The notes: generated by a model from the letters alone, not told the origin. Counted from the first letter of the stretch, positions 3,944 to 30,300 are shown. The stretch is 64,000 bases of DNA from Amphiscolops sp. MND2022 (GCA_964187785.1 OZ076417.1:17422001-17486000), one strand, 5' to 3'. Numbers and translations are program-made.

Positions 3944-4377
3944 GACATTTCATCCTTTGCAATTTCAACCTATGCAATTTCAACCGTTGCCATTTCAACC
4001 GCTCACAATGTCAACCTATTGCATTTTCAACCGTTCGTCATTTCGACCTAAACTTACTTTGGCTAATGGATTCTAATTAGTTACATAATTAATTGGGTGG
4101 TTTTAACTTTCATACATTTCTAAATTCAAATATACTAATTTTTACGCCAGTTTTACGCCGTTCTGGCTTCGTCATGAATAATTACTATTAATTAGGGATT
4201 AAGGCTGTTTGATCCATTGCACTAGAATAATAACAACCGAATTAAGACTAAATAGCCAAAGTCAGTTTAGGTCGAAATTGCGGACGGTTGAAAATGCAAT
4301 AGGTTGAAATTGTGAGGAGCGGTTGAAATGGCAACGGTTGAAATTGCATAGGTTGAAAGTGTATAGGACGAAATGAC
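3944..4377. mobile_element. MITE/foldback-like element with ~120-bp TIRs built of TTTCAACC repeats
   Basis: 3944-4065 is the inverted complement of 4253-4377 (tttcaacctatgcaatttcaaccgttgccatttcaaccgctc versus gagcggttgaaatggcaacggttgaaattgcataggttgaaa). No clear TSD. Confidence 0.8.
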
Positions 4378-4664: not shown

Positions 4665-5381
4665 TCAGCCTGAGAAGGATCTGAAATTTGTTTTGCTGAA
4701 GAGGCTCGCTCTGCAATATAAACATCCATTGTCATAACCTTCATCATTTTCATTACTATTGATGGAATCTATTGAATTCCTTCTACAATAATTTGTACGG
4801 TTATTCCTCATCGTTTCTAGCCTAGGGAAGTCATTTTGGGCATCCTGAAACCTTTGGGTAGGATTTTCCGGATGCCGTCCATATGACCCTAGGTCCCTTT
4901 GGGCCCGTTCTTGGCTGAAATCATTCGAATGCGGTCCATCTGACCGAAGGTCCAAATTCGCGTTTTTAGCTGAATTCATGGTTTCCAGAGCGTTTTTGAT
5001 GCTTGGAAGCACCCTTTCCTCTAATGCGGAGTTAATCACATCAAGTATATGAGAATTTAAGTCTGTTTTCAATTCCTCAATTTTTCGAGACATTTGGGAA
5101 GAAATTTCGGAATTAATTAGCCTGTTAGTTTCCACAGTAATCTCACTATTTTCACTCGTGTTAGTGTTCAATAATGACCTAAAGTTATTTTCAGTTTGTC
5201 CTTCACTCCGCTGGTGTCTTCCTGATTCTAAGTCTACTTCAGGTTCTGTATTATTCTCATCTTCAACTAAATCATTTCTCGAGTAGGCTCCTAACATTAC
5301 ATCGAGGTTTTCAATATCTGACATCACGTCAGATTGTCTAGAACGTTTCTCTTTGGCCTTTTGCTTTCTGGTAGAAGGCAT
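4665..5381 (-). CDS. Truncated Gag N-terminal ORF in the 3' LTR, reading 21 codons into flanking DNA
   Basis: Identical to the first 217 aa of Gag up to ...DEGYD, then NGCLYCRASLFSKTNFRSFSG* from the host flank. Confidence 0.7.
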   Translation of the reverse strand: MPSTRKQKAKEKRSRQSDVMSDIENLDVMLGAYSRNDLVEDENNTEPEVDLESGRHQRSEGQTENNFRSLLNTNTSENSEITVETNRLINSEISSQMSRKIEELKTDLNSHILDVINSALEERVLPSIKNALETMNSAKNANLDLRSDGPHSNDFSQERAQRDLGSYGRHPENPTQRFQDAQNDFPRLETMRNNRTNYCRRNSIDSINSNENDEGYDNGCLYCRASLFSKTNFRSFSG

Positions 5382-6180
5382 GACAAGAAGATTGAACGTT
5401 TCTAACAGTGAATTTTGCAATTGATCAAATCAAATCAAAGAGGTTGTATATAGCGTTTCAATATCAACAAAGTGATCCTCTAAACATCGGACTCCTTGTA
5501 TATATAGTTGGGGGACCATGACAATCATTATTTGGGGTGTCATGGTAATAAAAATACAAATGATGTCATAACACTATAAATAACTAAGCGCAGACATGAC
5601 GTCATATTACATCATCAACTATAAATAGCACTAGAAAGGGTTATATCAATAACTGGTAACACTAGTGGTTACATGTACGCAATACTACGTTACGTCGTGA
5701 TAGCTATACTAAGGTATTGCATGAAATAACATGTTGACCTAATGTCAGATTGACTGCACTAAATAACTAAGTTGGTACTGTTTGTCAAATATAGATGGTT
5801 TGTGACCCAACGTCAAAATGACTATAGCACTGTACTGGTACTTAGCGTTAATAGCACTTGAGATTAAATATAGTTGTTGACAGGACGTCAACATGACTAG
5901 AGCGTATTCCCTCTAGCCCCATATCAGGCGTCAAGTGAATACCGTGAGTATATTGATGCGGTCAGTTTGACCTTAAGTCCAAACAGTAGAATATCAGATT
6001 TCATGGTCAGGCTATTTACTAAATACTACTAAAATCAACGAATACATGTAAAATGGTAATTAACATTGTAAATGAGTTATTTCAGTTTCTATATTGGCAA
6101 TACCCCGGGTCCGGGGTTAATTTGACAGTTTTGAGGCATGATTTGATACAAAATGCCGTCACAGGCGGCAGCCTGTGACA
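4730..6180 (-). repeat. 3' LTR (1451 bp) of the 16-kb Gypsy element
   Basis: Near-identical copy of 19371-20821, flanked by TSD TCCAT on its outer side. Confidence 0.96.
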
Positions 6181-6898
6181 CTCCCCGGGGGACTAAGACA
6201 AATGAGCCTGCCCGCATTCCCGCTTGAAAAGCCCGTCGTTTGGCCATCCTCTGATCGTATGTTTCTCCACTGACATGTGAGCCTTCTAGATAGCCCAGAG
6301 TTATTTCCTCTCTGATTTCGGGGAAAGATTTCCCACAGACCACACATCCCGAGTGATAGGTTTCGTTTGGTTGCCCGCAATATCCACTCACGGAAATTGC
6401 CAACCCTGTGATGTGCTGGTTCTGAGCCCATTGATCTGTATATTGCTCGTGCTGTTGCTGGCTGTCATATTGATAGTGCGGCATTTGGTCGACTAACGGG
6501 GGTGAAGCAGGAGTTGCTGGAACCGGCTCAAGTTGACTACACACTGCAATCGGGTGTTGATCCACATTCTGTGCACAGTAGGAGGCTGGAGGATGACCTA
6601 CAGCCCAGTTGATTAATTCTTCAGAAGGTTCGGTGAAATCGCCAATCGTATCCGGAAGAGTTTCTGCTGGTAAGCTGAGGTCATTCAGACTTTCAGTCAA
6701 AGTTGTTGTCATGGCACGTCCTGCAGCTAGCTGTGGAGGGAACGGAGGTTTTTCATAAAAGCATGCCAACACTTGTATTTCGTCTTCGTCTGGTTCTCTG
6801 TCCAGCAGATCTTGAACGGATGTGATTGAATCCACCTCCATATCCTCATCAGAAGAGGCGTACTCAAGGCTGACTAGCGATCTGGGGCGTTCTTCCAT
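6089..6898 (-). CDS. Orphan acidic accessory ORF (~269 aa) in the env position, ending ~30 codons inside the 3' LTR
   Basis: Track ORF 6089..6916. Strong Kozak ACCATGG at 6898, preceded by a possible acceptor CTCCAG (6910-6905). Cys/His cluster YCGQPNETYHSGCVVCG. No signal peptide or TM segment visible. Confidence 0.6.
   Translation of the reverse strand: MEERPRSLVSLEYASSDEDMEVDSITSVQDLLDREPDEDEIQVLACFYEKPPFPPQLAAGRAMTTTLTESLNDLSLPAETLPDTIGDFTEPSEELINWAVGHPPASYCAQNVDQHPIAVCSQLEPVPATPASPPLVDQMPHYQYDSQQQHEQYTDQWAQNQHITGLAISVSGYCGQPNETYHSGCVVCGKSFPEIREEITLGYLEGSHVSGETYDQRMAKRRAFQAGMRAGSFVLVPRGVSQAAACDGILYQIMPQNCQINPGPGVLPI
6181..6192 (-). promoter_or_regulatory. Atypical polypurine-tract position (TCCCCCGGGGAG); only 6 purines, palindromic
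   Basis: Sequence immediately upstream of the 3' LTR TGTCA on the minus strand. Confidence 0.55.
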
Positions 6899-8481
6899 GG
6901 TAAACTGGAGGGACATTCTCCCGTTGTAACGGCTGAGTAGTATTTTCTTGGCAATTTTGATTTATAGATCTCGTGAGACTGATTTTCAGCTGAGTAGATG
7001 TGAGAATGAAGTGATATGGTCGTTCTGACCTAAGGTCTAATCTCAGAATTTGCGGGAAAACTAAAAGGGAAACCCCGCACACCATTTTCCTTATATTCCT
7101 ATTATAGGTAGATTTGGCTGAATGGGACATCAACAACTTAACGGTTGGGTGAGGTGTCTAGTCGTCAAGTAGTCCTTGAGTTTATTTGGCTTTTCTCTTC
7201 AAAGGTCTATGAAGCGGTGTTAACAGGTTGTTAAGTCGTTTACCACTTTTAATATTTGTCAACAATGTTGATCAAAGACCATCGGTCTATGTGACCGTAG
7301 CAGTTGTAATAGCCAATCAGATAAGTTTGACGAATATAAAATAAAATGGAATTTGATAAGGTGAAGCAGTGATTTTGATGAAAATTGAACGTGATGAAGT
7401 AATGTTTTGATTGATACATGTGATGGTTACATAAGGTAGTGAGTTTAATCTGACAGACAGTTGAAGCGTTGAATTACTAATATGATGCACTTTTAGGGGT
7501 ACTTCACTGGCAGGTTCAGTACGCACGATCATTGGTAATTTCATTCCGATTGACATAGTTTTGAGGAATAAGTTAATTCTAAATAATTTATTTTCAGCCA
7601 CGGCTCTCGTTGAAATTTCATTTAATGTGCAATTTTTCAATTAAACGCGGTTAGTGCTTTTGTTGAACGTGTTGTCCACTAATTACGTTCCATTGAATGA
7701 GTCGAAATACTTGGGTGAGGTAAATGCACTGCATGTTGGGTAATAAAGCAAGGTACGTTAATTGATTATTGTCAGTTGAATAAATTCGGTCTCAATAGTA
7801 CGGGGTGTACATGTAAGTAAATTAGTATAGTCTAAATGACCTGTGGTCTTTCATCATGGATGACGTCACAATGTGGAAGAAAGTAGGCTGCTATTATCAC
7901 CTGTCCTATTCCACTGGTAGCTGAGTACATGTAAGCGTTTGTAGTCAAGTGGACTTATTGTCCCATTAAGTAAATAATAAATGAGTGCAAAGTCATACTA
8001 TGTAAACACTAATCTGTTGCAGGCGGAATACAGCGTACATTACGTCATTTGGATACCTTCGTTAATAGTTGTTCACTATACGTTTGGTCTAACCGTTCAA
8101 AGTTGACAGTTGTAATTGATTACAGTTTCCGAGTAGCATCACTTAAGCTGTATTAATTTCCATCAGGAATTTAATGCTGTCTTTCTGACCTTGGGACCGT
8201 ATCATTTCCTTTCAATCCTTGTTACGCACTGGAAATCACATCAAATTTGACTTCTCCTTTAGATCAGTCTACAGCTCTAGTCTGTTTCACTATTTTGATT
8301 CCGCTTCTTTTGAATTGTAGACTAAAATTGATTTTGTGATTACTGATTGCGTTATCATCGCTTGTTCTGGTTTATCAATCCGACTGAAAGTCTCATCACT
8401 CAGCGTTGTAGGAAGGAGCTACCGAAGCCATACGATACAACAGTTTACTGCTGCTTTTGAGCTGAATTCAGACCTTCCATC

Positions 8482-11400
8482 ATGGAAGTATCTTCAGGTT
8501 GGTTCTTTTTGAATCGTTAAATTTTAGCTTGATCAGGGCTTTCATTTAACTAAGAGTCTTCCTCCATCGTGAAAACATACTAAGATGTGTGAAATTTCAA
8601 ATCTACTTCCGGAAGTTATTTGAATGCGGCAAGATGGATATTTTTGCAGGAAGCGAACCGCGATTATTCATTTCCTTTCGTTTAGAAAATGAAACAACTG
8701 GCCAACCAGCTCAAGATACGGAAGAGAAAATGGACACGAGCTCTCCTAGCTTGGTTCGTAGAGAAGCAGTTGAAGAGACTTCAAGTGATGAGATTGAGGT
8801 AATCGAGATCACTTTATCCAGTCCTGAGTGCACAGACATTGAGTCTGCTCTACCCCCAGTCACGCTGATGAAAACTGAGCCTGAGTCTGAAGAAGCGCAG
8901 ATATTTGCTGAAATTCAAAGGAGAAGCGGATTTACAAGTAATAGCAGCACTGGTTCTGATGAAAGTTTCGGAGCGTATGTGACAAGGAAACTAGACGAGA
9001 TGGAACAGTCTGGGCAACCTGAAGTTACACCCAAGACCAATGGCAAGGTCAAACAGAGTGAAAGCGAACCAATTGTCATGCAGCCTAATTGTAGTCCCGA
9101 TGGCCAGGCTTCTTCAAAGCAAACACTCCCTCTTTCCCTATCCAAATACATCAGCGTGGTCAACAACCCTGATGTCAAGCAGATTGAGCCAGCCGAGGTT
9201 ATTGACACGTATGAGTTCACATTTGCCCCAGCAGTGAAACACAAGTCCATCCGGAATGAGAATGAATCCTGTCAACTTGACTCTACGTCCTTAGAACCAC
9301 ATGAACGTCACTTAGCTGAGACACAATCGGGCAGTGAGACTGAAGTTCCATTCTTAAGTGACCATGACTCTACCCGTTACGCTCGGTCAACGTTAGCAGA
9401 AGCGTTGGCACCCCCCAAGACTCAGTACCTCACTTGTAATAGCGATGGGTCTGACTATGAGTCAACCATACAGGCACCCGTAGCAGCATCTAGAGAAGCG
9501 CCTATCTCAATCAGCAGTAGGGAGATAATTCGCAAGTGTTTTGCTGAAACAAATCCCATAAGTCTACCGCAAGGGCACCCGACCGTCGCCTTTAACCAGG
9601 AACAGATGTGCCAAATGCTGAAAGTGGTTGCTGACGAGACGGCAAAATCGACCTTTGGGATGATGAACAGTCTCATACTGAAGGCAAGTCAACTCAACTT
9701 GAACCAGAGTCCTCATTCCGCCAAAAGTATGCATCGGCCAAAGTCAGTCCAATCAACCGGTACGGATTCAGAAACTGACCGGTATACGTTCCGTCACAGG
9801 ACTCCATCTGGTCAAAGTGACTTTTGGACTACCGATCATTCTCGTGAGCAAACTCCCAGTCGGGCATCGGAGATCAACATTCCAAGTCCCCCAGTACCTG
9901 GGTGCAGTCGAAATGACCTTCAGTCCCCAGCTTTGGAGAAAACCGCCGACAGTCCAGGAGCACAGACCTTGGCTGAGTTGAAACGTGAAGCTGCAGTGAC
10001 CAAAACCAAAAAGAAGAAGGGTTCCAAGCGTCCCACCGCTACTAAATCAAAGAAAAAGAAACCCGTGTGGAGGTCTAACAAGGTGATGCGAGAAGAGCTA
10101 TTTGAAGGAATAAGTTGGGCAAGAACTTTTGTTACCGGACCAATGGATCCTAAGTGGAACCCCTATAAATTTTACTGCCAAATTTGTAAGGGGAACGTGT
10201 CCATCTATGGCAGGGGCGTCAAGGAAATTCTTAGACATCACAAAACGGAGCGCCACCTTCGTAGAGACCAACGATGGCGGTATGAACACCTGTCTGTGGA
10301 GGATCCAGTCACCAAGACGATTCGTCACTACGTCAGAGACGAGAATGGTAAACTCTTGACACCGTACGAATTGGAACTTGAATATCCCAAATTCAAGGAT
10401 GTGACTCTCGTTGACATCGGAGAGAAGCTGCCGTTCTATGATGAGGCTATGGCAGGGAATACCCACATGACGTCGTCTTCTGAAAACAGAGTTCGCGTAC
10501 AGATCTCGATCTTGGGCCACTTTCTTCCTAACTTTGGTGACATTAGGTCTTTGCGCAGTTTGTGGAAGGATATTGGAGTAGTCGTCAACCACCAGGCTTT
10601 GTTCTCTGACTTCAACTGGGGAAAAGAACGCCTCTCAGTAAGTCCTCATAAAGTAATTTGCTACTCAGCGTCTAATTGACTAGACTATCCAATATATCGA
10701 TACCTTTCATAAGTTAGGTCATACTTAGCCCTACCGTTATCCTGGCTTGCTGTTACGTTTCAAATCCCCTTGTTAGTATGTTGGATTTGTGTTTTCAGGT
10801 CCTGTTCCATCACATATTCGTGCGATTGTTGGATGACCTTGGGCAATACATTGTGGCTGAAGGACAGTTTGCCGTTGAGTTTGAGTTGAAAGGCCTATTC
10901 CTCTTTATGCACGTGCGTTTCTGGCGAGACAACCAACTGTGTCGTGTTGTTTTGAAAAGGACAGGGCGGACTGGCGGACAAACCCAAGCTGAAAAACATC
11001 TTTTCTCCAGCCTCTTGGGCGCTATTTCAACGCGTCCCAGTCCAGTTTGTGCTAGTGGATGTTCACTCGATTTCGTCCAAGAATTAGATGAGAGTCCTCT
11101 ATTTACATTGGGAGTTCAGAGCTTCAAGCGATTCGACGAGGTGTCACTAGCTAAGTTGATGCACAAGGAAAATTATTCGGTATTTGGACGAATTGACTTC
11201 TTTTCTACCCTAAAGTACTTAGTTGTCTCACTTGGCGGCAGTTTGGACATGGAGTGTGTCTTGCTATCCCCTGAGTTGTCTAAGGTTAGAGTCTTGCATT
11301 GTTTTTGGGTTTCCATGACTAAGACTAGGCCTAAATGACTGTGTTATTTGTAGGCGATTAGAACATGTCAGCTGGACGTCTCTAAACTGCATATCCTCTG

Positions 11401-12867
11401 TCAGGAATTGATAAAGAATTGGAAGTCAATTGTGGAGTTTCTTACTACATATTCGCTCAAGCAACAGATGCAAGGGGTGCATAATCAGGTAGGAATTTGG
11501 TCAAACTGACTTTTGGTCAAATACTCAAATCCCTTCGCAGCTGTAATATGTCTCTTGCTTCTAGCCGCAGAATTTGGAATGGTCGATCATCGGCGATGAA
11601 CTTTTCACTTGTCGACTAGGATTGTTCCAACGATTAACACGGGATTGTTAGTGCTCCTTTCTTTCCTTTCATCGTTATTTGGTCTCTTCAAACTGATTCC
11701 TAGGTTCGTTTAGATGCTAATGCCTTTTCACTCAGTCTGTCGGGCCGAAGAGACAGGTCATTTTACACCTACCGTCAACTTTGCCAATTTCTATTCAAAC
11801 TTGCGCGACGATGTTCTTCGCCAAAAGATTTGCCTCCAGAGGAAAATTGGCCTGAAATCCTTGACTTGGACTTGGGAACTACAACTGCACTCAGTGTCAA
11901 GAATTTCCTTTCTCGAGCCAAGTTTGGTTCTAAGTTAGACGCAGCTTGCAAGATCAAAGCTGGATACGACAAATTGGAAAAATGCAACGCAGGTCTATCC
12001 ATCGATGCACTGTCTGACAAGGATAAAGAAGACTTTGGAAGGGCAGCACGCAGTTACGTCACCTTTTTATTTAATTCGTTCCAAGGACTGAAGGGACTAA
12101 CTAATGACCTCGTTAAAGGCTTGGGTTGCTTTGATTTGGAAATTATCCTGCTTGGACCCATAGCACACGCAACTTACTGTCACACGCAATTGTTTACCAG
12201 TTTCCGACTGCGGGGCCATTTTACTATGGAACAAGAGACTGCAAGTGGTGAAGAATACCTGTCATTTGTGGATGATCTGAGGCGTACTTACTCTGACCTG
12301 GCGCAGCCTACTTTACTGATACCTGATACAGTCAAATTTCTTGTTGAATTGCCTATCCTGCATAGTCGACCTTTGCTCTTCAAGCTGTTTCGTTTGGCGT
12401 GCCTGTGCCTCGATGAGCCTTTTCCTGTTTTACCCAGCGTGAAATTTGGATCAGTTGATTCTGACAACCCGACTAGCAGTCATATTGATGTAATTTTACC
12501 TGTTCAATCTTATTTTGCTAATGTACCCTACAGTATTGAGGCTGTTACTACCGATCAATCCGTATCTGATTTCCTTCGTCTGGAGCCTGATTTTATTGAT
12601 GGTGGAATGAGCGATACTTATTGCCCCTGGGACAGCGTTGACTTCTTTGGACGTTCGAAGATTCTTGAACAGCTAACTTCTGATATTAGCAGACCAAAAC
12701 CCTCAGTCAGCATTGCTGTCGGTAAAGTTGCAGGGAGCAGTAAGGCTTCCGGGGCGTCCAAGTCGTCTCCCAAAAAGAGTAGCAAGCGACCCAATCAGCA
12801 GTCACCCGATAAGGAAATGATTTCGTCAGCTAAAGCCTTGTTGACCCCTAGTAGTTCTAAACTCTAA
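8482..12867 (+). CDS. Antisense, five-exon accessory gene (~1250 aa): acidic S/E-rich N-terminus, basic NLS, BED-like C2H2 finger, degenerate hAT-transposase-like core and C-terminus
   Basis: Predicted exons 8482-8497, 8686-10637, 10799-11284, 11354-11488 and 11704-12867. All introns are GT..AG (GTTGGT/TTTAG, GTAAGT/TTTTCAG, GTTAGA/TTTGTAG, GTAGGA/TTCCTAG) and all joins preserve frame. Start context catcATGG. Finger FYCQIC-x16-HHKTERH at 10176-10256. hAT-like segments FAVEF..MHVRFW, ELIKNWKSIVEFL, DFGRAARSYVTFL..KGLGCFD and RPLLFKLFRLACL. The exon 4-5 junction is the least certain. Confidence 0.8.
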
Positions 12868-13057
12868 TTGTACATTATGTACAATTGAATTCTTTAGTTT
12901 GTACATTTGTCTATTTATTCTGTGTGGGTGTTTTATGTCATTGCTTTCATTCGTATTTCGTTCCTTTTCTGATACCATTTCATTCAGTCCAAAAGACGTA
13001 CTGTTAGTCTGGGCCTCGTAGAGTGGTCATTATAAAGAGTTTAATTTACATGTCTGG

Positions 13058-16000
13058 TTAGTATCTGTATTCATCAGTAAAGTTTGGAGTAGGGTTGGGA
13101 CGTAGGTTATATTTGCCTCCCCTGGGACTTTCATTTTCTACAACCTTTTCATCATCTTCTCTTTCTGATAAATCGGGCACGGATATATCCCTCCCGCTAG
13201 GGTTTGAAAAATCGGAATTTGGCATCTCCGATGGGCTTTTGAAAGGCATTTCTTCTATTTCTGGATCTGTAGTTGATTGTGGTCGGTTTGACCTAAGGTC
13301 CATGTCAGGTGAGTTTTCAGCCGGCTGCTCGGTGACGGCTGAGTCAGTATCTTTGTTCGGTCCGGTTGACCTTGAGTCAATATCGCTATTTTGGTGCTCA
13401 CGCGGTGTAGCGGCGTTGTCGTTAGAATCGGCGTCACGTCTAGTGGACCGAAGGTCCAAATCCGTGTTTATAGCGTCGGGTTGGTCAGAATTCGTCGGAA
13501 AATCATCAGGAGTGTCTCCTGTATCAAGATGAGGGGGAAACTCGGCAAATTCAGTCTCCCACGAGATAATATAAAGATCGTCTTGAGGTATAATAATTTC
13601 ATCATCAGCTTGTAAATTTCCTTCTGGTCGCACATCACATAATTCCGTATTTGGAACGTATTTCCGCAAGCGTATCCTGTGTAAAATTTGCGTTTTGTTA
13701 GAGCTGAGTTTTCGGACAATGTAGTTTTCATTCGGTAGGACCTTTTCAATGACGTACGGTCCAATCCACCTGAATTCACGGAATGGAATTTTGGATCCTT
13801 GATTGTCGGCTAACGGCTGTAATATAAAGCAATAATCTCCCTGGTGTAACGGGGCTGCTTTAGCTTTTCGGTCATAATATTCCTTGTATTTTAAATATGA
13901 CTGCATGATATTTTTCTTTGTTCTATCAATTAAAATTTGGGTACGTCTTTGTAGTTCTTCAGCAAAATCCGTTGATGGTAGGATTTTCGGGTTGGGATTT
14001 AATCCCAACCTGTGGTCTAGGATGTTGTAAGGCACTCTACCGTGAAAAATTCTGGATGGTTCACATCCTAGACTGGAATGATAGGTTGTGTTGTAATTGA
14101 GAACAGCCAATGGTAAATATTTGTGCCATTGGCGCCGGTATTCACCCGAAGCCATTTTAAGATTGCCTTTAAGACTTGCATGAGTTCTCTCTAATTTACC
14201 TATTGTCTGAGGATGTTTCGTTGTTGCACATTTGATCTGGATACCTAGGATCTTTGTGACTTCATCGACTAGACGAGACGTAAAGGCAGTTCCTTTGTCA
14301 GTGATCAAAGTTGTTGGCAAATATGCATGCCTTGTCATGATGTCAATAAGTACTTTTGCGGTAGTGGAGGCCGATGCGTCGGCTACAGGGTAAGCGAACA
14401 GGTATCTTGAAAAGACATCCAGGGCAGTAATAACATTTTCATATCCCCCGCTCGGTGGGAGGTTAGGTAGAAGATCAATCTGTAATGCGTCTTCCGGGCC
14501 AAGATCCCATTCGGGCAAATTAAGAAGTTCAGGTGTTATTGATGGGTTTTTGATTCGTTTATCTTTGATGCATGTTTCACATCCTTGGACCCACTTTTTG
14601 ACAATTTTTGCAATTCCAGGGTAGTAATAATTTTGACGGATGTCATAAAGCATCTTGGAAATTCCCGGATGTTTATGTGCTGTCCCATGCAGTGATTGGA
14701 GTAATTCTGACACGAGGTGTTTGGGTAAAAGCGCCTGACGATATTGGACGCTTCCTGTTTCGTCATAATAGTCTCTAAGGACGACGTCGTCCTGGACGGA
14801 CAGACGGTCAATTTGACTGCAGTAATGTCTGTAGCGCGAATCTTGTTGTAGGATCGTCTCCGAATATTCTTCTTTCTGCAGTTTGAGACGTAACTGGTGC
14901 AATACCACATCATTTTGTTGTTCAATAGCCATGGTGGTGGGGTTTGATAGTCTTTGTAAAGTTGTTTGATGTGAAAAGACAGTGGTGTGGGCACTGAGTT
15001 TTCCTAGGGTGATGTCAGGTAATTGATTTGTCGGGTTTGACCTGGCGTCTTTCTTCCGTTGACATATCTGTTCTTCAGTTTCTTCATTATCGTCAGTGTA
15101 GAATATCTGGTCCTCCTCAGTGACTCCGGCGGATTGCACATTTAGTTCGATGGGCGTTGTCGATATGTCTTCCCGTATGCGGAGTATGAGTTTCTCTTTA
15201 GGGCAGATTTCTAGACGAGACAGATAGTCTGCGGCGGTGTTATTTTTGCCAGGAATATGAGCGATTGTGAAATTGAACTGAATAACGTAGTCACACGCGT
15301 TCCACAGGGTGGGTGGAATTATTTTAGTCTGAAAAAAGCGAGTGACCGACTTGTTGTCTGTCAGAATGATCACCGGTTGCGGAGTCCCCCAAAAGATATG
15401 TCCAAATTCCTTGAAGGCAAAGAATATTGCTAAGAACTCTTTGGCGTAGATGGACATTTTCAATTGTGCGGGACTAAAGGTCTTGGATCCATATGCTACA
15501 GGTGCGAAGGCTTTCCGCGTCGATGAATATTTTTCCATTGGATCGTCCTCGATGAGAACTGCGTAACCTGCTGCCGAAAAACTAGCATCTGTCATTAGAG
15601 CGATTTGTTTATTAGGCAGTGGTTGTTTGAGCGCGAGTTCACAACATCGGTCAAGAGCTTTGTTGATCTCGGTGAATTGTTCTAACAGATCGGGCGTCAC
15701 CATGACTTTAGCATCATTTTTCAATAATTTGAAAAAGGGGGTCATTTTTTCTGAAAGTCTTGGAATGTAGTTGCGGTAGTAGTTCAGGAAGCCCAAGTAT
15801 CGTTGAAGTGCTTTTTTGGATTTTGGAAATTTCGTTTTCTCTAGGAAGTTTTGGACCCTGGGTCGTTGTGGCCTCACTCCTTCAGGGGTGATGGTGCGTC
15901 CCAGGAAGTCAATTTCTTTGGCTCCGAAGTGACATTTATGCATTGTCAATTTGAGACCAGCGGTTCTGATGCACTCAAAGGTCGCTCGTAGGTTGTTGAT

Positions 16001-18238
16001 AAGTTGTGTCGCGTTGTTGGCTGCGATTCCAATATCATCTACGTACTGTGCGCATTGATCCGCTTTAATCACCTTGTCCAGGTATTCGCGCATAAAGCTC
16101 GAAAAGGCGGATAGGGCTCTGCTTAGACCTTGCGCAAGTCTGCGATAGGCAAAGGTTCTGCTAGCAAAGTTGAAGGCTAGCATCTCAATTGACCTCTGGT
16201 CTGCCATCTGAAGGCAGTGATATGCTTGAGAGCAATCCAATTTGCAGAATAATCGTTTGCCTGCCATATGTTGGGCAGCGTCCGTCAGTGTGCTGACAGG
16301 GTGATTATTGTTGATGTAATCATCAGAGATCAAATTATTGATCTTCCGGAGGTCGACCAGGAGTCGTAGTTTGCCATTTGGTTTCTTCTGGGCGAAAATG
16401 GGGCTTGCATATTTGGAAAACGGAAGCGTTGTTATGATCCCATATCTGTGTAGAAGGGCTAATTCGACGAGGATGTCCTCTTTGAGATTGATGGGTGTAG
16501 GCAAGCTTTGACTGTAGGCAGGGGAGTCGTCTTTAGGGGTTAATTTTACCTTGAAGTCCTCGTTCATCCCTATGTCAAAGCGGTGTCGTGCAAAAATGTC
16601 GTGGAATTCGACAAGAAGCTCTTCGATTTGGGCAATTTCAGTTGGGTTCAACGTCGAGTCTGCCCAATCAAAGTTGGCGAGAAACTGTTGTCTAGACTCC
16701 AGGTCATCCTGGGGGTTGAGTTTCTCTAGTTCTTGCAGGTTTCGCAATTCTTTGAGAATTCTTTGTTGTATTGGGGTATGCGTCTGAGGATCTCCTGGTT
16801 GCTCTGGAGTAGGAAACCAATAGTTTTCGCTGTTGTCTTCGGTTTTCGGAGATTTGATCAGACTACTGGCATAATAAACGGCATTTTCAGGATTATCCTG
16901 TAGAAGATGCCAAGTGGTCACAGGGTCGATAGGTTTGACGTATTTCAACTGTTCTGGAGTTAGTACAGAGAAATTGGCGATGTGGGAACCTCGTTTGAGG
17001 GTGTAAGGCTGATCGGTGAAATTGTTCACATGAATTGAAGCTTGACCTTGGGTCAGTGTGACTAGAGCGGCGCAGAAGGTTATATCACCGTCTTCCGCGA
17101 GGTCATTGCTCGGTTGAAGAATTCCAGTGACGGTTGTATCCTCGTACATTTGTGAGCACATGGATACCATATGTCTATCATTGGGAGGGATAGTGATATC
17201 CTCCCGGGTGCAAATTGGTTCCATGACATTAGTGTATTTGTGGTCCGCGGTTTTTAATTGCATGGAAAAGAACGGGAAGTTTAGGACTCCCTGTCTCATG
17301 TCAAGTATGGTATTGTTTCGTTGAAGGAACGAAAGGCCAATTAATGGACTTGTGAGCTTCTCCATGACTATGAAAATCTCGTGAAAATCGATGTCCCCGA
17401 CCTCGAATTTGAGTTCGACAGTGCTCTTGGGAGTTTCCAGCTGTCCATTAGCTACCATAATTTGGAAGTTAGGAGCTGGGCCCTCTTTGATGATTGACTG
17501 AGGGGCTAATAGTCGGATTTTACGTAGATCAGCTTCTGGGATTGCGCTCGATAATGCTCCCGTGTCTACAAGGCCATCTAAAGTTAGTTCGCCGAAATCC
17601 ATTGGAAAGTAGAGCATGCGTCTTTTATATTTGAGTCCCAAATTCGTCGTTAGAGGGACGTAATCGGGTTCACCGGCTCTTGAGATAAGCGAATTCACAA
17701 AGCGTTCTTCAACGGCTGCAGTCAACATGACCATAGGTCCTTCTTCGGAAGGTTTGTTTATTGATTCTTCTGGATTGGGTAAAGTTGTGGTGGTGCGATT
17801 ATATTGCCAGGGATCTACGAGAGCTTTGGTCAGGGTTAAATTGAGGGTTCGGTCGATGTCATATGAATCAAGTTCAATTTCCATGGGGTTCTTATGGTAA
17901 TTGTTGTAGAAATGAAGATGATGTTGGTTGTAGAGCTGAATGTCCCAATAAGGGTCGAAACCAAAATCCGGGTCAAGGTAATAGGGATTATAGTCATTTA
18001 TGAGGGGTAGGGGCCGGGTAGTACTAGTATTACAGTGGAGTCTATTGGACTGATGGTCCAAGTCAAGTAGGCTAATAGGGGTGTTTAACACCTGCTGCTG
18101 CCAGTCAGCAGATGAATTTTCTTTTAGCGAAGAATAGTATTCAGTATAGTATATAGTGGAAGGGTCAGATATGATGTATTGTCTGACTCGTAGTTTTTCA
18201 TTAATATAGAGCCGTGGCGAATTTAGTTTTTTGAGTTT
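13058..18238 (-). CDS. pol: Pol polyprotein: aspartic protease, dUTPase-like insert, RT, RNase H, integrase (Gypsy order)
   Basis: Motifs LVDTGA (PR), YVDD (RT), TDAS...TDN (RH), H-H-C-C zinc finger, QIDLL/TDKG/LERTH (IN D,D,E) and WIGPY. The reading frame is open from 18238, overlapping the gag end in the -1 frame. Confidence 0.96.
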   Translation of the reverse strand, partial: KLKKLNSPRLYINEKLRVRQYIISDPSTIYYTEYYSSLKENSSADWQQQVLNTPISLLDLDHQSNRLHCNTSTTRPLPLINDYNPYYLDPDFGFDPYWDIQLYNQHHLHFYNNYHKNPMEIELDSYDIDRTLNLTLTKALVDPWQYNRTTTTLPNPEESINKPSEEGPMVMLTAAVEERFVNSLISRAGEPDYVPLTTNLGLKYKRRMLYFPMDFGELTLDGLVDTGALSSAIPEADLRKIRLLAPQSIIKEGPAPNFQIMVANGQLETPKSTVELKFEVGDIDFHEIFIVMEKLTSPLIGLSFLQRNNTILDMRQGVLNFPFFSMQLKTADHKYTNVMEPICTREDITIPPNDRHMVSMCSQMYEDTTVTGILQPSNDLAEDGDITFCAALVTLTQGQASIHVNNFTDQPYTLKRGSHIANFSVLTPEQLKYVKPIDPVTTWHLLQDNPENAVYYASSLIKSPKTEDNSENYWFPTPEQPGDPQTHTPIQQRILKELRNLQELEKLNPQDDLESRQQFLANFDWADSTLNPTEIAQIEELLVEFHDIFARHRFDIGMNEDFKVKLTPKDDSPAYSQSLPTPINLKEDILVELALLHRYGIITTLPFSKYASPIFAQKKPNGKLRLLVDLRKINNLISDDYINNNHPVSTLTDAAQHMAGKRLFCKLDCSQAYHCLQMADQRSIEMLAFNFASRTFAYRRLAQGLSRALSAFSSFMREYLDKVIKADQCAQYVDDIGIAANNATQLINNLRATFECIRTAGLKLTMHKCHFGAKEIDFLGRTITPEGVRPQRPRVQNFLEKTKFPKSKKALQRYLGFLNYYRNYIPRLSEKMTPFFKLLKNDAKVMVTPDLLEQFTEINKALDRCCELALKQPLPNKQIALMTDASFSAAGYAVLIEDDPMEKYSSTRKAFAPVAYGSKTFSPAQLKMSIYAKEFLAIFFAFKEFGHIFWGTPQPVIILTDNKSVTRFFQTKIIPPTLWNACDYVIQFNFTIAHIPGKNNTAADYLSRLEICPKEKLILRIREDISTTPIELNVQSAGVTEEDQIFYTDDNEETEEQICQRKKDARSNPTNQLPDITLGKLSAHTTVFSHQTTLQRLSNPTTMAIEQQNDVVLHQLRLKLQKEEYSETILQQDSRYRHYCSQIDRLSVQDDVVLRDYYDETGSVQYRQALLPKHLVSELLQSLHGTAHKHPGISKMLYDIRQNYYYPGIAKIVKKWVQGCETCIKDKRIKNPSITPELLNLPEWDLGPEDALQIDLLPNLPPSGGYENVITALDVFSRYLFAYPVADASASTTAKVLIDIMTRHAYLPTTLITDKGTAFTSRLVDEVTKILGIQIKCATTKHPQTIGKLERTHASLKGNLKMASGEYRRQWHKYLPLAVLNYNTTYHSSLGCEPSRIFHGRVPYNILDHRLGLNPNPKILPSTDFAEELQRRTQILIDRTKKNIMQSYLKYKEYYDRKAKAAPLHQGDYCFILQPLADNQGSKIPFREFRWIGPYVIEKVLPNENYIVRKLSSNKTQILHRIRLRKYVPNTELCDVRPEGNLQADDEIIIPQDDLYIISWETEFAEFPPHLDTGDTPDDFPTNSDQPDAINTDLDLRSTRRDADSNDNAATPREHQNSDIDSRSTGPNKDTDSAVTEQPAENSPDMDLRSNRPQSTTDPEIEEMPFKSPSEMPNSDFSNPSGRDISVPDLSEREDDEKVVENESPRGGKYNLRPNPTPNFTDEYRY

Positions 18239-20022
18239 TTAAGGATAGAAGTAGTTGTCTTATTATTGGAGTCGTCATGACTTGCGGTTTTGTCATCGGA
18301 GGTAGAGTTATCTAATTTGAGGTTTTTGGGCTTGAGGTGGGCTCCTGCGCCTTTCCAACAGCGCTCCGCCGGGTGGTTCGTTTTATCACAAGTTGGGCAC
18401 TTTGGGTACTCTTTTTTGGTACTTTGGCCTTCATTGCGTTTTTGTTCTTCCTTTCTTTTGAGTTTTCGGCATTCATCTTTGACGTGTCCAGGTTTTTTGC
18501 AATAGTTGCATGTCGTTCCTGTGTCAATCCCTGACGAAAGGAGGCCTTGTCCCGGACGTGTCGTCGTTGGGGCAGTGGACATTGTGGGAACGGGAATGTC
18601 GTCACCTTCCTCAAGGCCATTTAATTCTAATTCACGTTCTAGGTGAGTGACAATTTCTTCATAGGTCGCGTTTTCTAATCGCGCCATGTTGACAGAACGT
18701 TTGAGTTTTGGTGGAAGTTTGGCATAGAGCAGACTGTCGATCATTGCTTGCGCGTGTTCGCCGAAGGCTTTTTCGGCACCCTGATTGAGTTCTTCAAGAA
18801 AATCAGGCAATTTCATTGTATTCGGGTTGAATACGAGTTTGTGCCATTTGTGTTTGGCAGTTGCCTGAGATTCAGGTTTGACATATTTGCGGCGAAAGAC
18901 AGCCAGTATGTCGTCCAGTGTTTGTCTGTTTGCTGAACTAATGTTACGGAAGGTCTGGAGCGCATTTTTGCGCAACAGTGAATGAAAGTGATTAATTTTC
19001 ATTGTTTCCGTCATGTCCGGTTGCATCTTTATCATCGTGTGAAAAAGATCTTCAAACAGTTCAAATTTTTCGGATTTCCCATCAAATGTCAGAGTGGCGG
19101 TATTGACTGGGCGTACCATCAGTGTTTGTGCAGAAGATTTGTTGTTCATTCCTATAATTACGTCTGCAAGGCGGTTAATGGGGTCTAAGGGTGTTTCAGA
19201 GTGTTGTCTCTGGTTGTTAATAGGGACTGACGGTATTTGCGCCGGTAGGGTATTATCTAGTGTGTCATCATTGACACACTGTTGATGGGGATTGGTATTT
19301 CGGGACTGCGTGGGACGTCCGGTCAGAAATTCAGGGACCATTTGTGGGGTAAGGTTGGCTCCTGTCACCATGTCATAACCTTCATCATTTTCATTACTAT
19401 TGATGGAATCTATTGAATTCCTTCTACAATAATTTGTACGGTTATTCCTCATCGTTTCTAGCCTAGGGAAGTCATTTTGGGCATCCTGAAACCTTTGGGT
19501 AGGATTTTCCGGATGCCGTCCATATGACCCTAGGTCCCTTTGGGCCCGTTCTTGGCTGAAATCATTCGAATGCGGTCCATCTGACCGAAGGTCCAAATTC
19601 GCGTTTTTAGCTGAATTCATGGTTTCCAGAGCGTTTTTGATGCTTGGAAGCACCCTTTCCTCTAATGCGGAGTTAATCACATCAAGTATATGAGAATTTA
19701 AGTCTGTTTTCAATTCCTCAATTTTTCGAGACATTTGGGAAGAAATTTCGGAATTAATTAGCCTGTTAGTTTCCACAGTAATCTCACTATTTTCACTCGT
19801 GTTAGTGTTCAATAATGACCTAAAGTTATTTTCAGTTTGTCCTTCACTCCGCTGGTGTCTTCCTGATTCTAAGTCTACTTCAGGTTCTGTATTATTCTCA
19901 TCTTCAACTAAATCATTTCTCGAGTAGGCTCCTAACATTACATCGAGGTTTTCAATATCTGACATCACGTCAGATTGTCTAGAACGTTTCTCTTTGGCCT
20001 TTTGCTTTCTGGTAGAAGGCAT
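18223..20022 (-). CDS. gag: Gag (599 aa from the ATG at 20022) with two CCHC zinc knuckles; the N-terminal ~217 codons lie inside the 5' LTR
   Basis: Track ORF 18223..20061 starts at TTG; the first ATG gives MPSTRKQK. Knuckles CNYCKKPGHVKDEC and CPTCDKTNHPAERC. Capsid-like region LTFDGKSEKFELFEDLF. Confidence 0.93.
   Translation of the reverse strand: MPSTRKQKAKEKRSRQSDVMSDIENLDVMLGAYSRNDLVEDENNTEPEVDLESGRHQRSEGQTENNFRSLLNTNTSENSEITVETNRLINSEISSQMSRKIEELKTDLNSHILDVINSALEERVLPSIKNALETMNSAKNANLDLRSDGPHSNDFSQERAQRDLGSYGRHPENPTQRFQDAQNDFPRLETMRNNRTNYCRRNSIDSINSNENDEGYDMVTGANLTPQMVPEFLTGRPTQSRNTNPHQQCVNDDTLDNTLPAQIPSVPINNQRQHSETPLDPINRLADVIIGMNNKSSAQTLMVRPVNTATLTFDGKSEKFELFEDLFHTMIKMQPDMTETMKINHFHSLLRKNALQTFRNISSANRQTLDDILAVFRRKYVKPESQATAKHKWHKLVFNPNTMKLPDFLEELNQGAEKAFGEHAQAMIDSLLYAKLPPKLKRSVNMARLENATYEEIVTHLERELELNGLEEGDDIPVPTMSTAPTTTRPGQGLLSSGIDTGTTCNYCKKPGHVKDECRKLKRKEEQKRNEGQSTKKEYPKCPTCDKTNHPAERCWKGAGAHLKPKNLKLDNSTSDDKTASHDDSNNKTTTSILKNSKN
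18226..18232 (-). promoter_or_regulatory. Putative -1 ribosomal frameshift slippery heptamer A AAA AAC
   Basis: XXXYYYZ heptamer in the gag frame immediately before the gag stop. The -1 frame is continuous with pol, with no stop from 18238 to 13058. Confidence 0.8.
19359..19370 (-). promoter_or_regulatory. Primer-binding site TGGTGACAGGAG (possibly tRNA-Leu)
   Basis: Starts with TGG directly after the LTR-terminal CA. The complement ...CTCCTGTCACCA resembles a tRNA-Leu acceptor end; the tRNA identity is inferred. Confidence 0.8.
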
Positions 20023-20821
20023 GACAAGAAGATTGAACGTTTCTAACAGTGAATTTTGCAATTGATCAAATCAAATCAAAGAGGTTGTATATAGCGTTTC
20101 AATATCAACAAAGTGATCCTCTAAACATCGGACTCCTTGTATATATAGTTGGGGGACCATGACAATCATTATTTGGGGTGTCATGGTAATAAAAATACAA
20201 ATGATGTCATAACACTATAAATAACTAAGCGCAGACATGACGTCATATTACATCATCAACTATAAATATCAATAGAAAGGGTTATATCAATAACTGGTAA
20301 CACTAGTGGTTACATGTACGCAATACTACGTTACGTCGTGATAGCTATACTAAGGTATTGCATGAAATAACATGTTGACCTAATGTCAGATTGACTGCAC
20401 TAAATAACTAAGTTGGTACTGTTTGTCAAATATAGATGGTTTGTGACCCAACGTCAAAATGACTATAGCACTGTACTGGTACTTAGCGTTAATAGCACTT
20501 GAGATTAAATATAGTTGTTGACAGGACGTCAACATGACTAGAGCGTATTCCCTCTAGCCCCATATCAGGCGTCAAGTGAATACCGTGAGTATATTGATGC
20601 GGTCAGTTTGACCTTAAGTCCAAACAGTAGAATATCAGATTTCATGGTCAGGCTATTTACTAAATACTACTAAAATCAACGAATACATGTAAAATGGTAA
20701 TTAACATTGTAAATGAGTTATTTCAGTTTCTATATTGGCAATACCCCGGGTCCGGGGTTAATTTGACAGTTTTGAGGCATGATTTGATACAAAATGCCGT
20801 CACAGGCGGCAGCCTGTGACA
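19371..20821 (-). repeat. 5' LTR (1451 bp) of the 16-kb Gypsy element
   Basis: TGTCA/TGACA termini, abutting PBS TGGTGACAGGAG on the minus strand. Matches 4730-6180 except at 20269 and 20272 (by-eye comparison). Confidence 0.96.
20140..20147 (-). promoter_or_regulatory. Candidate LTR TATA box (TATATATA); second copy at 5499-5506
   Basis: Lies about 120 nt upstream of the gag ATG, downstream of a U3 containing a TGACGTCA (CRE-like) motif. Confidence 0.45.
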
Positions 20822-21799
20822 TCCATGAAACAGATTTTTGAACCTTGTTCATTATTCACATTTTTCTCAATTATTATTTCATTTTTCTCAATTCACTCTT
20901 GCTTGGGTGGAGATTTATCGCAGTTTAAAAATTTTTTCATTGCAGCTGAGCGTTTATCATGTTTCCGCCATTTTTTTGCAAAATTACTTCAGTAACGTTA
21001 AGAATTGAAAACTAGCGTCATCTCAACTAAAAGCGGTGATCACATTAAACAATAATTCCGTGAAAAATTCAATTCAAAAAGATCCAAACGTTCGAAGTTG
21101 GCTCAATTACAACGCAGGCCTTTTGTACGGTAAAGACAAAAAAACAGTAGTAGCGCTTTTCTCGAATTTTGGTCAATATTGGGGATTTTAAAACTGTTTC
21201 TAAATTCCTATTACTAGCAGAAATTCTTGGTGAACAGAATTTCGAAAAGACACCATTGCAACTATTATTTTCACTCCAAATATTAAGAATAACAATCAAA
21301 TTTAACTGGAAACGTCCTTTTTTGCTTGCTCTGTAATTTCTTATCACAGTTTTCAGACGAGTAAAGCCTTTTGCGACCATTCGGACTGAAATTTGAACGA
21401 ATTGACAGGTTATTTTAATTTTTTCCCGAAAATGTGACATACCTCTTCGTTGTTTTTTTTTGGAAACGTTATACGTCGGAGCGCATTAACCGGAGCGTTC
21501 TCCTTTTTCGAAAAAAATTCCCCAAGGTCGCACTTCATCTCGGTGTAAGTTTTACTTGCTGCCAGATATTGTTTCGATTGTTTTTTTCTGCGACGAAATC
21601 CTAAGTACTTGACACTTGTGAACGGATTTAACATTAGCCATACGAAAGTTATATGAATCGAAGGAACAAGAAGCCCGAGGAACTTTTTATGGAACTTGTG
21701 TTGCGAGAACTTTTGTCGTTACGAGGAAATTGGCCGTTTCGCAAGGTTCTGCTAAAAATTTTGTGACGAAACTTGCGCTCCGATAAGCACCTTAATTAT

Positions 21800-27371: not shown

Positions 27372-30300
27372 TTTGCATCTGATTGCCTCTCAAAGAATAA
27401 ACGGGATCGATGAGGCACAGATATTGTAAGAATTCGTATCAAACTTTGTAGAATCGTTTGTATTCATTACATATACAAAAACTCTAGCCGTGCCTGCCGG
27501 ATAGTGTTCTATGCTGCATTCTTGCATGCAGACTTTTTAAAAAAAACATGAAAAATTTGGGGACCTTGCATGAAAAATTTTGTGAATTTTCGGAGCAGTT
27601 TCCAAAAAAACTCAACGTATAAAAACTTACAAGTAGTTCATAGAATTTCTCTAAAAAACAACGGATCAAGAAAACGGGCGCTCCGAGCTACCTTAAGCCT
27701 CCAAAAAACTTGGAAAACTCATTCAAAAGCTTACTTTTATCGTAAGACCTACTGTACTTCATCGAGGAACCAAGTAACTAAAAAAGACAATTGAATCATC
27801 TCAAAATCAGACAATTAAGCACAAAAAAGACCATTCCCGAAGTAACTGTTTTTTTTCACTCTTTATTCGAACTTCACTAGCCCGAAACTACTTCTTCATT
27901 CGTAGCTTCAAAGAACTGAAACACCAGTTTGCACCTCTTTTTCGTCTAAAACTTGATTAAAATCTGCTCTCTATCTGCAAGGATGACGAGACATACTGCA
28001 TTTAAATATGACGCTAACCATAGTTTTCAACCAAATGGAAATTAAAACAAGTGTACTGACGTGTCATATGTTTGTCTTGGGATCAAATGGTGGACCTTTA
28101 GGGCTAGAAGTAGGTTTTATCCAAATTAAAAGCAAAAAACAATCAAGTGAAATGGTCTTCTTGGTGAAATAATTTAAAAAACTGCCCGAAAATTTTTAAA
28201 AAATCAAAGGTTGTGTCCTGTTGGTCCTTTTCGCAATTCAAATGAAAATTTAAAGTAGCCAAAGCCGGATCTTTTGAACTTTTCCGGATAATAGGTTGTG
28301 GAAAATGGTACCCATTCAGGTACAATATGTGGTCAGGAGAAAAACAACTAACTAGTCACTGCTACCTTCGCGCACATTTTACAAAGTGCGTCAACTAAAA
28401 ACATTTTTTTTGCTCAACCTTGTACCGTGTGGTTGTCAACGTATCGATTTTTTTGGAAAAGCAGTAATACAACTGGGAAGAAATGAACAAACAATCTCAA
28501 CATGCTAACATGAGCTAGCGGAGGGCATAAAATATATAGTATTTGTAATATAAAATCCTATGTAAATGCAACGTGTCTGTATTTTGGCGGTACAAAATTG
28601 TACGCATGAATATTGTCGGCAAAGTTCGTTCAATTAAAAATTTATTCATAGCTGAAAACAAATTTCTGCAGAGTTGAGTTAGTAATGACAACCGCCTAAC
28701 AAAATCGCGAAATCTGATTGTTAATTTGAATACAAATTAAAAATTTTTACCAATATAGAAACTTCGTCTAGTTTTAATTAAATTGAACATGGTTTTTTTC
28801 TCATGATTTTTTCGACTTCGATTTTCTCAACAGTAATTAAAATTTCTCAACAAAAATTCAAGCAACTTATTGAGCCTACAGACATGTGATTGGTAGGAAT
28901 TAAATTTCATTCATATTTCTAAAAAAATTGAGAGATTTGCCAAAAATGTGGTCATTGAGACGCCAGTAACTCACATGCATTGTTTTGTTTTGTTTAATTG
29001 TCCAATTATATAAAAAGTTATATCATATGACATAATAACCAACTTTTGTTTTTTTTCTGCTAGGCATTCTTAAAAGTCACTTTCAATTCGTCTTTTGAGC
29101 AAACTGATAATGAAAAGCCCAAAGGGCTACAAAAAAGCAGTAAACGGCTAAAGTCAGCGCGACATTAAGACTCAAAAAGAGAAACCTTTCAAATTTGTTA
29201 AATGGAATATGTTCATGAAAATTGTAAAAACCTTGCGGTACTTAGTAATATTCACAACGGGTACCCGTTGGATACAAAAATCATCTATCCTAACTGAAAA
29301 TAAGCAAGAAACCAAAGAGGGTCCATTTGGTTTCAAATAATTTTCAGGATCTGGTTAAAAATGAAATATTCAAAGGACTAAAATAATTTGAAATCTCAGA
29401 TTATATTCTTTAATGAAATACTAAATTTAATTAGGTTTTAGATCTTTATTGGACAAGATTGTAAAGCTGGACCGAACAGCATGCATTTTGGTTCGAGAAA
29501 ATGTTGTCGAAAGTGCAAAGTTTTAGCTGGTAATGAAGACTACTACTGGGTAAACATGCAAAAAAAACGAAACGCGCAAGAATTTGTTCACACACAAACC
29601 GTAGTATTTGTAAGCAAGGTCCAGAAATACAATTTGACTGACAGTCAATTGTTTAAATTGAACGCTTTTATTGGATAATTACATATTCAACCGAGGTCAA
29701 ATTTTCAGAAATAGTCTAGACATATTTACCAGTAATTTCGTTCTCGCTTCAGGTGTATGAAACTTGTTTTGCTTCCAAAGAAGTTGCCAATTTGAATGAC
29801 TGACAGCAGTGTTCCATGTTTCATTTTAAACAATTGATCACAAATATTCGAAGTTTTGCGAACTGAAATTTTTTAAGCGTTACATTTTGAAATCACCAAA
29901 TATCTTCAAGAAAAAGAGCGATAGTATTGAAATTACTTGAACATTTTAAATGCAATATACAGTCGCCAGCAACTTTTATTATAACTTTCTGGAACTCCTA
30001 CGGAAACTTTCATACAAAAGTACTTCATGTTGTATCTAAAGTTTATCAAGCTGTTTAAAATAAGTATGCCAATTTCGATGACAATTTTAGGCTTTGAAAT
30101 TTGGCAGGTTTTATTAGAATACAGCCTCATTTTTAGTAGCAACATAGTTGCTACAAATTTACCATTTTGAGGCAAAATGATTTCAGTCACGCAATAAACT
30201 GCAAATTAGCGTCATGTTTAGTGTGCTAATACTATTTGAGAAGCGCTGATCACATCAGATGGTTAGTCGTGAAAAAATGTTTGATTGCAGCGTGATCGTG

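What the first reader, a model, noticed from the sequence alone, without database searches (positions are those of the whole stretch)
8498..11703. Four spliceosomal introns that survive retrotransposition because they are antisense to the genomic RNA
Introns 8498-8685 (188 nt), 10638-10798 (161 nt), 11285-11353 (69 nt) and 11489-11703 (215 nt) have canonical donors and acceptors on the plus strand, and they stitch three track ORFs plus two small exons into one frame (phases 1,0,0,0). Sense-strand introns would be lost during the RNA replication cycle, whereas antisense ones are invisible to the spliceosome on the genomic RNA. This is the logic of engineered retrotransposition-indicator cassettes, here apparently occurring naturally. 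It also implies the gene was captured at DNA level or gained its introns in situ.
Basis: partly seen in the sequence, partly recalled or inferred. Interest (0 to 1): 0.8.

Follow-up and report, generated by a model that had tools for sequence, protein, structure and literature searches.

The report
Backwards five-intron gene inside retrotransposon
A large family of copy-and-paste jumping genes carries, on its opposite strand, a conserved extra gene with five predicted introns that likely survive copying because the element's own RNA is the other strand, and its protein probably descends from a disarmed cut-and-paste transposase.

Summary
Real feature, gene model partly wrong. The window holds a young 16-kb Ty3/Gypsy element on the minus strand with a plus-strand gene between pol and the 3' LTR. 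Introns 1-3 are right. Across 71 loci down to about 30% protein identity, GT/AG stay at the same codons, intron lengths drift, exons show dN/dS 0.02-0.19, and integrase is on the other strand in 69 of 71. One family lacks intron 4 exactly (30 of 30 copies) and nests among intron-bearing families: a likely precise loss, and indirect evidence of splicing. Intron 1 is more conserved than the exons and holds a second conserved ATG, like HTLV-1 hbz. Folds weakly point to a hAT-like transposase. The indicator-cassette analogy is inverted; reverse-oriented globin vectors and hbz are the right analogues. No RNA data could be tested. The scan reported this gene before in other windows of this genome. 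New variant of known antisense accessory genes.

The parts
4725..4729 (.). target-site duplication TCCAT, left copy
4730..6180 (-). 3' LTR (1451 bp, TG...CA, 2 mismatches to the 5' LTR)
   Evidence: 3 mismatches in 1452 aligned bases, the last lying outside the LTR
6089..6916 (-). sense-strand ORF3, uninterrupted, unknown function, ends inside the 3' LTR; no Pfam match
   Evidence: 26-62% identical relatives in distant families
8482..8497 (+). exon 1 (ATG + 4 codons + 1 nt)
   Evidence: ATG 16 nt (55) or 13 nt (2) before the donor in 57 of 62 loci where the region was found; not found in 9 of 71
8498..8685 (+). intron 1, phase 1, 188 nt; unusually conserved, with palindromic motifs (TGATCA, CTTCCGGAAG), likely an internal promoter
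   Evidence: the promoter role is inference
8634..8685 (+). second conserved ATG and 17 open codons in frame with exon 2: predicted alternative N-terminus
   Evidence: ATG in 56 of 62 loci, open in 53 of 56, AG 50 nt later in 52 of 56; codon periodicity 0.83/0.82/0.68
8686..10637 (+). exon 2: long acidic low-complexity region, basic stretch, C2H2/BED-like zinc finger and helical domain
10638..10798 (+). intron 2, phase 0, 161 nt
   Evidence: absent in proteins P0079, P0112, P0255
10799..11284 (+). exon 3: predicted RNase H-like fold
   Evidence: model of homologue P0255
11285..11353 (+). intron 3, phase 0, 69 nt
11354..11488 (+). exon 4
11489..11564 (+). intron 4 (corrected), phase 0, 76 nt; exactly absent in one family
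11647..11713 (+). intron 5 (corrected), phase 1, 67 nt
11714..12867 (+). exon 6: helical region resembling the C-terminal part of Hermes transposase, basic tail, stop
13058..18238 (-). pol: protease, dUTPase-like, reverse transcriptase, RNase H, integrase
18223..20022 (-). gag, starting inside the 5' LTR and read through the LTR end and the primer-binding site
19371..20821 (-). 5' LTR
20822..20826 (.). target-site duplication TCCAT, right copy

Best explanation
This Ty3/Gypsy retrotransposon carries a conserved six-exon gene on the strand opposite gag-pol, and its five predicted introns likely persist because the RNA that is reverse-transcribed reads them backwards and so would not splice them. 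Shown: element anatomy, orientation, conserved splice dinucleotides, purifying selection on all exons, exact absence of intron 4 in one family. Inferred: the gene is transcribed from its own promoter(s) in the 3' internal region into a separate spliced mRNA, probably with two N-termini (short spliced exon 1, or the ATG inside intron 1). It probably arose when a hAT-like DNA transposon inserted backwards into an ancestral element at the DNA level (about 0.6). It then lost catalytic residues but kept the zinc finger, and now likely acts as a nuclear DNA-binding accessory regulator of the element (about 0.45). Rare reverse transcription of the spliced antisense mRNA, followed by recombination, would explain the exact intron loss.
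For: LTRs, TSD and gag-pol on the minus strand. Integrase on the opposite strand in 69 of 71 loci and on the same strand in 0; 2 loci showed no integrase in the stretch fetched. GT/AG kept at fixed codons while lengths range 69-181, 35-111, 65-126 and 64-177 nt in all three frames. dN/dS 0.02-0.19 per exon. Intron 4 absent with 0 intervening bases in L096, L098 and 30 of 30 loci of that family (L103 repeats L098). The family sits in a 99%-supported clade of intron-bearing families, and a tree with intron-bearing copies as one clade is rejected (delta logL 101). Sense-strand gag, pol and spacer have 0 strong acceptor-like sites per kb against 1.3-2.2 on the other strand. Folds: the top 4 Foldseek rows for the P0255 model are Hermes (best E 3.3e-3), followed by retroviral integrase cores. 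The exon-6 model has Hermes at rank 2 of 48,161 (Z 5.3, rmsd 3.5, 86 aligned, Hermes 426-567). Hermes is the only row among the 50 shown that spans model 11-288 (Z 5.1, rmsd 15).
Against: No transcript was seen, so splicing and promoter use are inferred. Intron 1 diverges far more slowly than the exons (d 0.09 against dS 0.7-3.7 in the ~81% group), and introns 2-5 (d 0.29-0.50) diverge more slowly than synonymous sites. The hAT link is weak: no Foldseek match at E<=0.001, Z values in the range the tool calls common, exon-6 model pLDDT 50, no Pfam hAT or BED match, no PDB sequence match, and no profile similarity to 8 hAT frames from this genome. The N-terminal model is of a 29%-identical homologue, not the window protein. 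The sense strand of the gene region itself is not clearly depleted of splice-like sites. The tree uses exons 2-3 only, a fast search and 2000 replicates; recombination between families could mimic nesting.
Confidence: 0.72

Rival explanations
1. Same spliced antisense gene, but captured from a host gene or another DDE transposase family (MULE, P, Kolobok), or an intronless ORF that gained all its introns inside the element.
For: The hAT match is weak. Relatives P0079, P0112 and P0255 lack intron 2, and a single gain of intron 2 in this genome's lineage is not rejected (p-AU 0.077). The long hAT frames sampled here run about 600-700 codons without interruption.
Against: Two separate models independently rank Hermes at or near the top, in the right domain order. 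No copy outside an element was seen among 71 loci, although these searches are saturated by element copies.
Confidence: 0.2
2. The protein serves the host (a restriction or silencing factor hitch-hiking in the element), or the antisense RNA rather than the protein is what matters.
For: Antisense transcription can itself regulate elements (PMC7264820, passages). Intron 1 is conserved as nucleic acid.
Against: dN/dS far below 1 across many co-amplifying families means selection on the protein in lineages that propagate by transposition. The gene is in the same place in all families examined.
Confidence: 0.06
3. The introns are not spliced: the open tracks are separate ORFs or a decayed gene, and the GT/AG sites are coincidence.
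For: No RNA evidence was obtained. Exon 2 alone gives a 681-codon ORF from ATG 8634 (P0001).
Against: Splice dinucleotides are conserved far above control positions, intron lengths are free of frame, exons of 45 and 27 codons without their own starts are under selection, and one family has exons 4 and 5 fused exactly.
Confidence: 0.02

Closest known systems
Antisense additional ORFs between pol and the 3' LTR (aORF-3R): maize Grande gene23, rice RIRE2, Silene Retand, PvRetro13, Botrytis Boty (PMC7264820, passages and section 6; Tat eORFs with PMD or Transposase_28, PMC4408406, passages)
   Same: Position, orientation, presence in most copies, own promoter (Grande), nuclear protein, in some cases a transposase-like domain.
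   Different: The word 'intron' does not occur in that review, which calls for looking for spliced antisense transcripts and leaves origin open. Here there are five conserved introns, 1274 codons, an RNase H-like/hAT-like fold, and no PMD or Transposase_28 Pfam match.
HTLV-1 hbz antisense gene (PMC1459196, passages)
   Same: Spliced antisense gene in an LTR retroelement. A 4-residue N-terminus from a short exon 1 replaces a 7-residue one from an intronic AUG, as predicted here for 5 against 17 residues.
   Different: hbz starts in the 3' LTR, its intron overlaps sense-strand viral sequence (recalled) and it is a bZIP protein. Here exon 1 lies 2.3 kb inside the element, four further short introns split the coding core, and the protein is unrelated.
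Reverse-oriented beta-globin lentiviral cassettes (PMC6775231, abstract)
   Same: An intron is kept through reverse transcription because the cassette is reversed.
   Different: Engineered, not natural.
Retrotransposition-indicator cassettes (PMC12786077, passage)
   Same: Antisense gene inside a retroelement, interrupted by an intron.
   Different: The intron is sense to the element RNA and is removed on transposition: the opposite logic.
hAT (Hermes) transposases
   Same: Predicted order: zinc finger, helical domain, RNase H-like core, helical insertion, C-terminal region.
   Different: No sequence-level match, no conserved acidic catalytic triad apparent, a long added N-terminal region, carried inside an LTR element.

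Membership tests
Ty3/Gypsy LTR retrotransposon | LTRs with TG...CA ends and a 4-6 bp TSD | tested here: met
Ty3/Gypsy LTR retrotransposon | pol order PR-RT-RH-IN | tested here: met
Ty3/Gypsy LTR retrotransposon | RT phylogeny within Gypsy | not tested
   no RT tree with reference elements was built
U2-type spliceosomal introns | GT...AG ends with pyrimidine tract, conserved at fixed codon positions | tested here: met
U2-type spliceosomal introns | removed from mRNA | not testable with these tools
   no reads could be laid; exact absence in one family is indirect support
aORF-3R antisense accessory ORFs | antisense, between pol and the 3' LTR, in most copies, under selection | tested here: met
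aORF-3R antisense accessory ORFs | homology to plant PMD or Transposase_28 proteins | tested here: not met
   no such Pfam match; same layout, separate origin
aORF-3R antisense accessory ORFs | own antisense promoter | not testable with these tools
   conserved motifs in intron 1 only
hAT transposase | RNase H-like core with helical insertion, N-terminal zinc finger | tested here: inconclusive
   Hermes top-ranked but E 3.3e-3 and Z 5.1-5.3
hAT transposase | Pfam zf-BED or Dimer_Tnp_hAT match | tested here: not met
   only a weak C2H2 match (PF25420, below cut-off)
hAT transposase | conserved DDE triad | tested here: inconclusive
   by-eye register against this genome's hAT frames finds no conserved acidic triad in alignments A1/A2; no computed alignment was obtained
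hAT transposase | terminal inverted repeats and 8-bp TSD around the gene | tested here: inconclusive
   no inverted repeat of 40 nt or more flanks the gene; shorter ones were not sought
Retrotransposition-indicator cassette logic | intron sense to the genomic RNA, lost on transposition | tested here: not met
   introns are antisense and retained (definition)

The most novel reading that the evidence does not exclude
A whole retrotransposon clade domesticated a DNA-transposon gene, introns and promoter included, as an autoregulator whose zinc finger binds the conserved palindromes in its own first intron. Its spliced antisense mRNA is occasionally reverse-transcribed and recombined back, so that introns are lost precisely inside a replicating retroelement: a natural system for watching intron loss and gain under reverse transcriptase.
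Probability: 0.25. Interest if true: 0.82.

Novelty: new variant of a known kind. Interest (0 to 1): 0.6.

Why it matters
Genes in LTR retrotransposons are expected to be intronless. This clade keeps a five-intron gene over deep divergence and thousands of candidate loci (8125 first-look candidates, 150 scored), a natural counterpart of reverse-oriented vector cassettes. A review leaves the origin of antisense accessory ORFs open and names nested transposon insertion as unsupported (PMC7264820, section 6); this may be such a case. Families that differ by exactly one intron make reverse-transcriptase-mediated intron loss testable. The five-intron structure also means ORF-based repeat annotation will miss such genes.

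Tried and rejected
RNA: no RNA holder was listed for 8300-13000; this is no evidence either way and no reads were laid. Rfam on 4700-13100: 0 matches at E<=1. A second possible acceptor at 8649 scores 6.2 and is not invariant; left open. L047's 207-nt deletion across introns 4-5 is imprecise, not an intron loss; L091's shortened intron 2 in a duplicated segment also is not a clean fusion. No fully intronless copy was seen: open frames reached at most 765 aa in 150 exon-2 hits and 534 aa in 126 exon-6 hits; only top candidates are scored. No longer homologues of exon 6 among 7992 candidates (weak). PF14291 search rang nowhere, uninformative. Profile tests against local hATs negative. The protein Atlas gave no answer, so no language-model look-alikes are available. 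A sixth intron, as earlier scan notes report for other copies, was sought in the 5' region and exon-6 tail and not found; a 5' untranslated exon is not excluded. Rows dropped: L048 (no exon-2 match); L002-L020 were used only and L021-L030 only as re-fetched longer stretches; L077 from alignment A6. Literature: ten full-text searches listed no paper describing a multi-intron antisense coding gene in an LTR retrotransposon; subscription papers such as Steinbauerova 2011 are not held, PMC5850863 was not held, and no supplements were read. Passages only, nothing bearing on it: PMC9289625, PMC6431247, PMC12477816, PMC5408684, PMC9911081. Penelope-like elements that retain introns are known from a reference title and recall.

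Full report
Element. The window holds an LTR retrotransposon on the minus strand from 4730 to 20821. It has 1451-bp LTRs with 2 mismatches, TG...CA ends and a TCCAT target-site duplication. Gag starts inside the 5' LTR, and pol encodes protease, a dUTPase-like domain, RT, RNase H and integrase in Gypsy order. Between pol and the 3' LTR lie a plus-strand gene (8482-12867) and a sense-strand ORF3 (6089-6916). The host was not identified; G000 is a 1.07-Gb genome with spliceosomal-type introns.

Observation. Comparison with copies showed a problem at the fourth acceptor: the dinucleotide at 11702-11703 is AG in only 6 of 39 loci, while the AG at 11713 is kept in 36 of 39. The interval holds an 82-nt exon (11565-11646), 85-100% identical in protein among 16 near copies and 42-78% in distant families. 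The corrected gene has six exons and five introns, phases 1,0,0,0,1, and 1274 codons.

Are the introns real? I examined 71 loci chosen from top-scoring hits of four searches, favouring long open frames; they are related and not independent. Introns 2-5 keep GT/GC in 64/68, 63/69, 64/66, 68/69 and AG in 68/68, 68/69, 65/66, 66/69; 2-3 loci per intron could not be scored. Control dinucleotides inside the introns match in 6-22. Lengths vary in all three frames. Exons show dN/dS 0.02-0.19 in the groups where dS is not saturated. Integrase lies on the opposite strand in 69 of 71 loci and never on the same strand. With matrices trained on other families, all five donors score 7.1-9.7 and all five acceptors 7.2-15.1. 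The sense strand of gag, pol and the spacer has no acceptor-like site of 8 bits or more, though its A-rich composition contributes. No transcript was seen.

Intron turnover. L096 and L098 have exons 4 and 5 joined with no intervening base. A search with L098 gave 40 matches at 89-100% (40 of 898 candidates scored), and all 30 fetched lack intron 4 while keeping introns 2, 3 and 5. On exons 2-3 this family falls in a 99%-supported clade of intron-bearing families. Forcing the intron-bearing copies into one clade costs 101 log-likelihood units (21 of 41 rows, fast search, 2000 replicates). One precise loss is the simplest reading, and it marks the predicted boundaries exactly. Database proteins P0079, P0112 and P0255 lack intron 2. 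Their DNA context is unknown, and gain against loss is unresolved (p-AU 0.077).

Intron 1. Exon 1 is still supported: an ATG stands 16 or 13 nt before the donor in 57 of 62 loci while the codons between vary. A second ATG at 8634 opens 17 codons in frame with exon 2 (56 of 62 loci) and shows codon periodicity, whereas the 5' part of the intron has conserved islands without periodicity, including two palindromes. I infer an internal promoter and two N-termini. HTLV-1 hbz has the same layout of a short spliced exon 1 and an intronic AUG (PMC1459196, passages).

Protein. Pfam gives only a sub-threshold C2H2 match. The model of homologue P0255 (pLDDT 71; 29% identical to the exon-2 domain) shows a zinc finger, helices and an RNase H-like sheet. 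Its four best Foldseek rows are Hermes transposase (E 3.3e-3 to 1.3e-2), then integrase cores. VIA lists many RNase H-like folds at Z 5-7, with Hermes at Z 5.1 over model 11-288. The exon-6 model (pLDDT 50) ranks Hermes second (Z 5.3) and sixth in Foldseek (E 2.1). Sequence profiles find no link to hAT frames of this genome or to the PDB. A hAT-like origin is therefore probable, not shown. By eye, no acidic catalytic triad is conserved.

Mechanism. The genomic RNA is the minus strand, so plus-strand splice signals are unreadable on it and the introns pass through reverse transcription (established knowledge; used deliberately in globin vectors, PMC6775231, abstract). The gene would be expressed from integrated DNA as its own spliced mRNA. 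A backwards DNA-transposon insertion explains orientation, introns and fold together. A nuclear DNA-binding accessory role follows from the zinc finger, basic stretches and comparison with Grande gene23 and hbz; this is inference.

Comparison and verdict. Antisense ORFs at this position are known in plant and fungal Gypsy elements, some transposase-like (PMC7264820, PMC4408406, passages), and spliced antisense genes are known in retroviruses. Ten literature searches listed no multi-intron case in an LTR retrotransposon, within a library that lacks most subscription journals. Earlier notes of this scan describe the same gene in other windows of this genome, two of them with seven exons; I had reached the hAT reading before opening them (note 1) and find six coding exons here. 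A search of the notes for precise intron loss returned nothing. Verdict: real, corrected to five introns, a new variant of a known kind, interest 0.6.

Noticed in passing
window 18223-20022 (-) and 4730-5380 (-): gag begins inside the LTR and reads through the LTR end and primer-binding site, so the 3' LTR carries a gag fragment that runs into flanking DNA (frame 4665-5429).
   Followed up: partly
window 6089-6916 (-): Sense-strand ORF3 ending inside the 3' LTR, with a CxxC motif, conserved at 26-62% across distant families, no Pfam match; mode of expression unknown.
   Followed up: partly
window pol, residues 341-422: dUTPase-like domain between protease and RT (E 6e-4, below the Pfam cut-off), as also noted for planarian Burro elements.
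   Followed up: no
window 8096-8197 and 7914-7979: Conserved non-coding islands upstream of exon 1 (76-86% in near families, shorter core in some distant ones): candidate promoter or untranslated exon.
   Followed up: partly
L031-L102 integrase against the antisense gene: Integrase stays 75-98% identical while exon 6 falls to about 30%: the accessory gene evolves much faster than pol or is exchanged between elements.
   Followed up: no
L051, L062, L091: Internal tandem duplications of parts of the antisense gene, introns included.
   Followed up: no
window 27372-27671 and 32657-32956: Identical direct repeat with 5285-bp spacing, probably a tandem duplication or another element.
   Followed up: no
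window 3946-4375 and 42025-42653: Two inverted-repeat (MITE-like) elements; a minisatellite lies at 45643-46328.
   Followed up: no
L157-L161: Intact-looking hAT transposase frames of about 600-700 codons exist in this genome; 150 Dimer_Tnp_hAT matches among 150 scored of 2215 candidates.
   Followed up: partly
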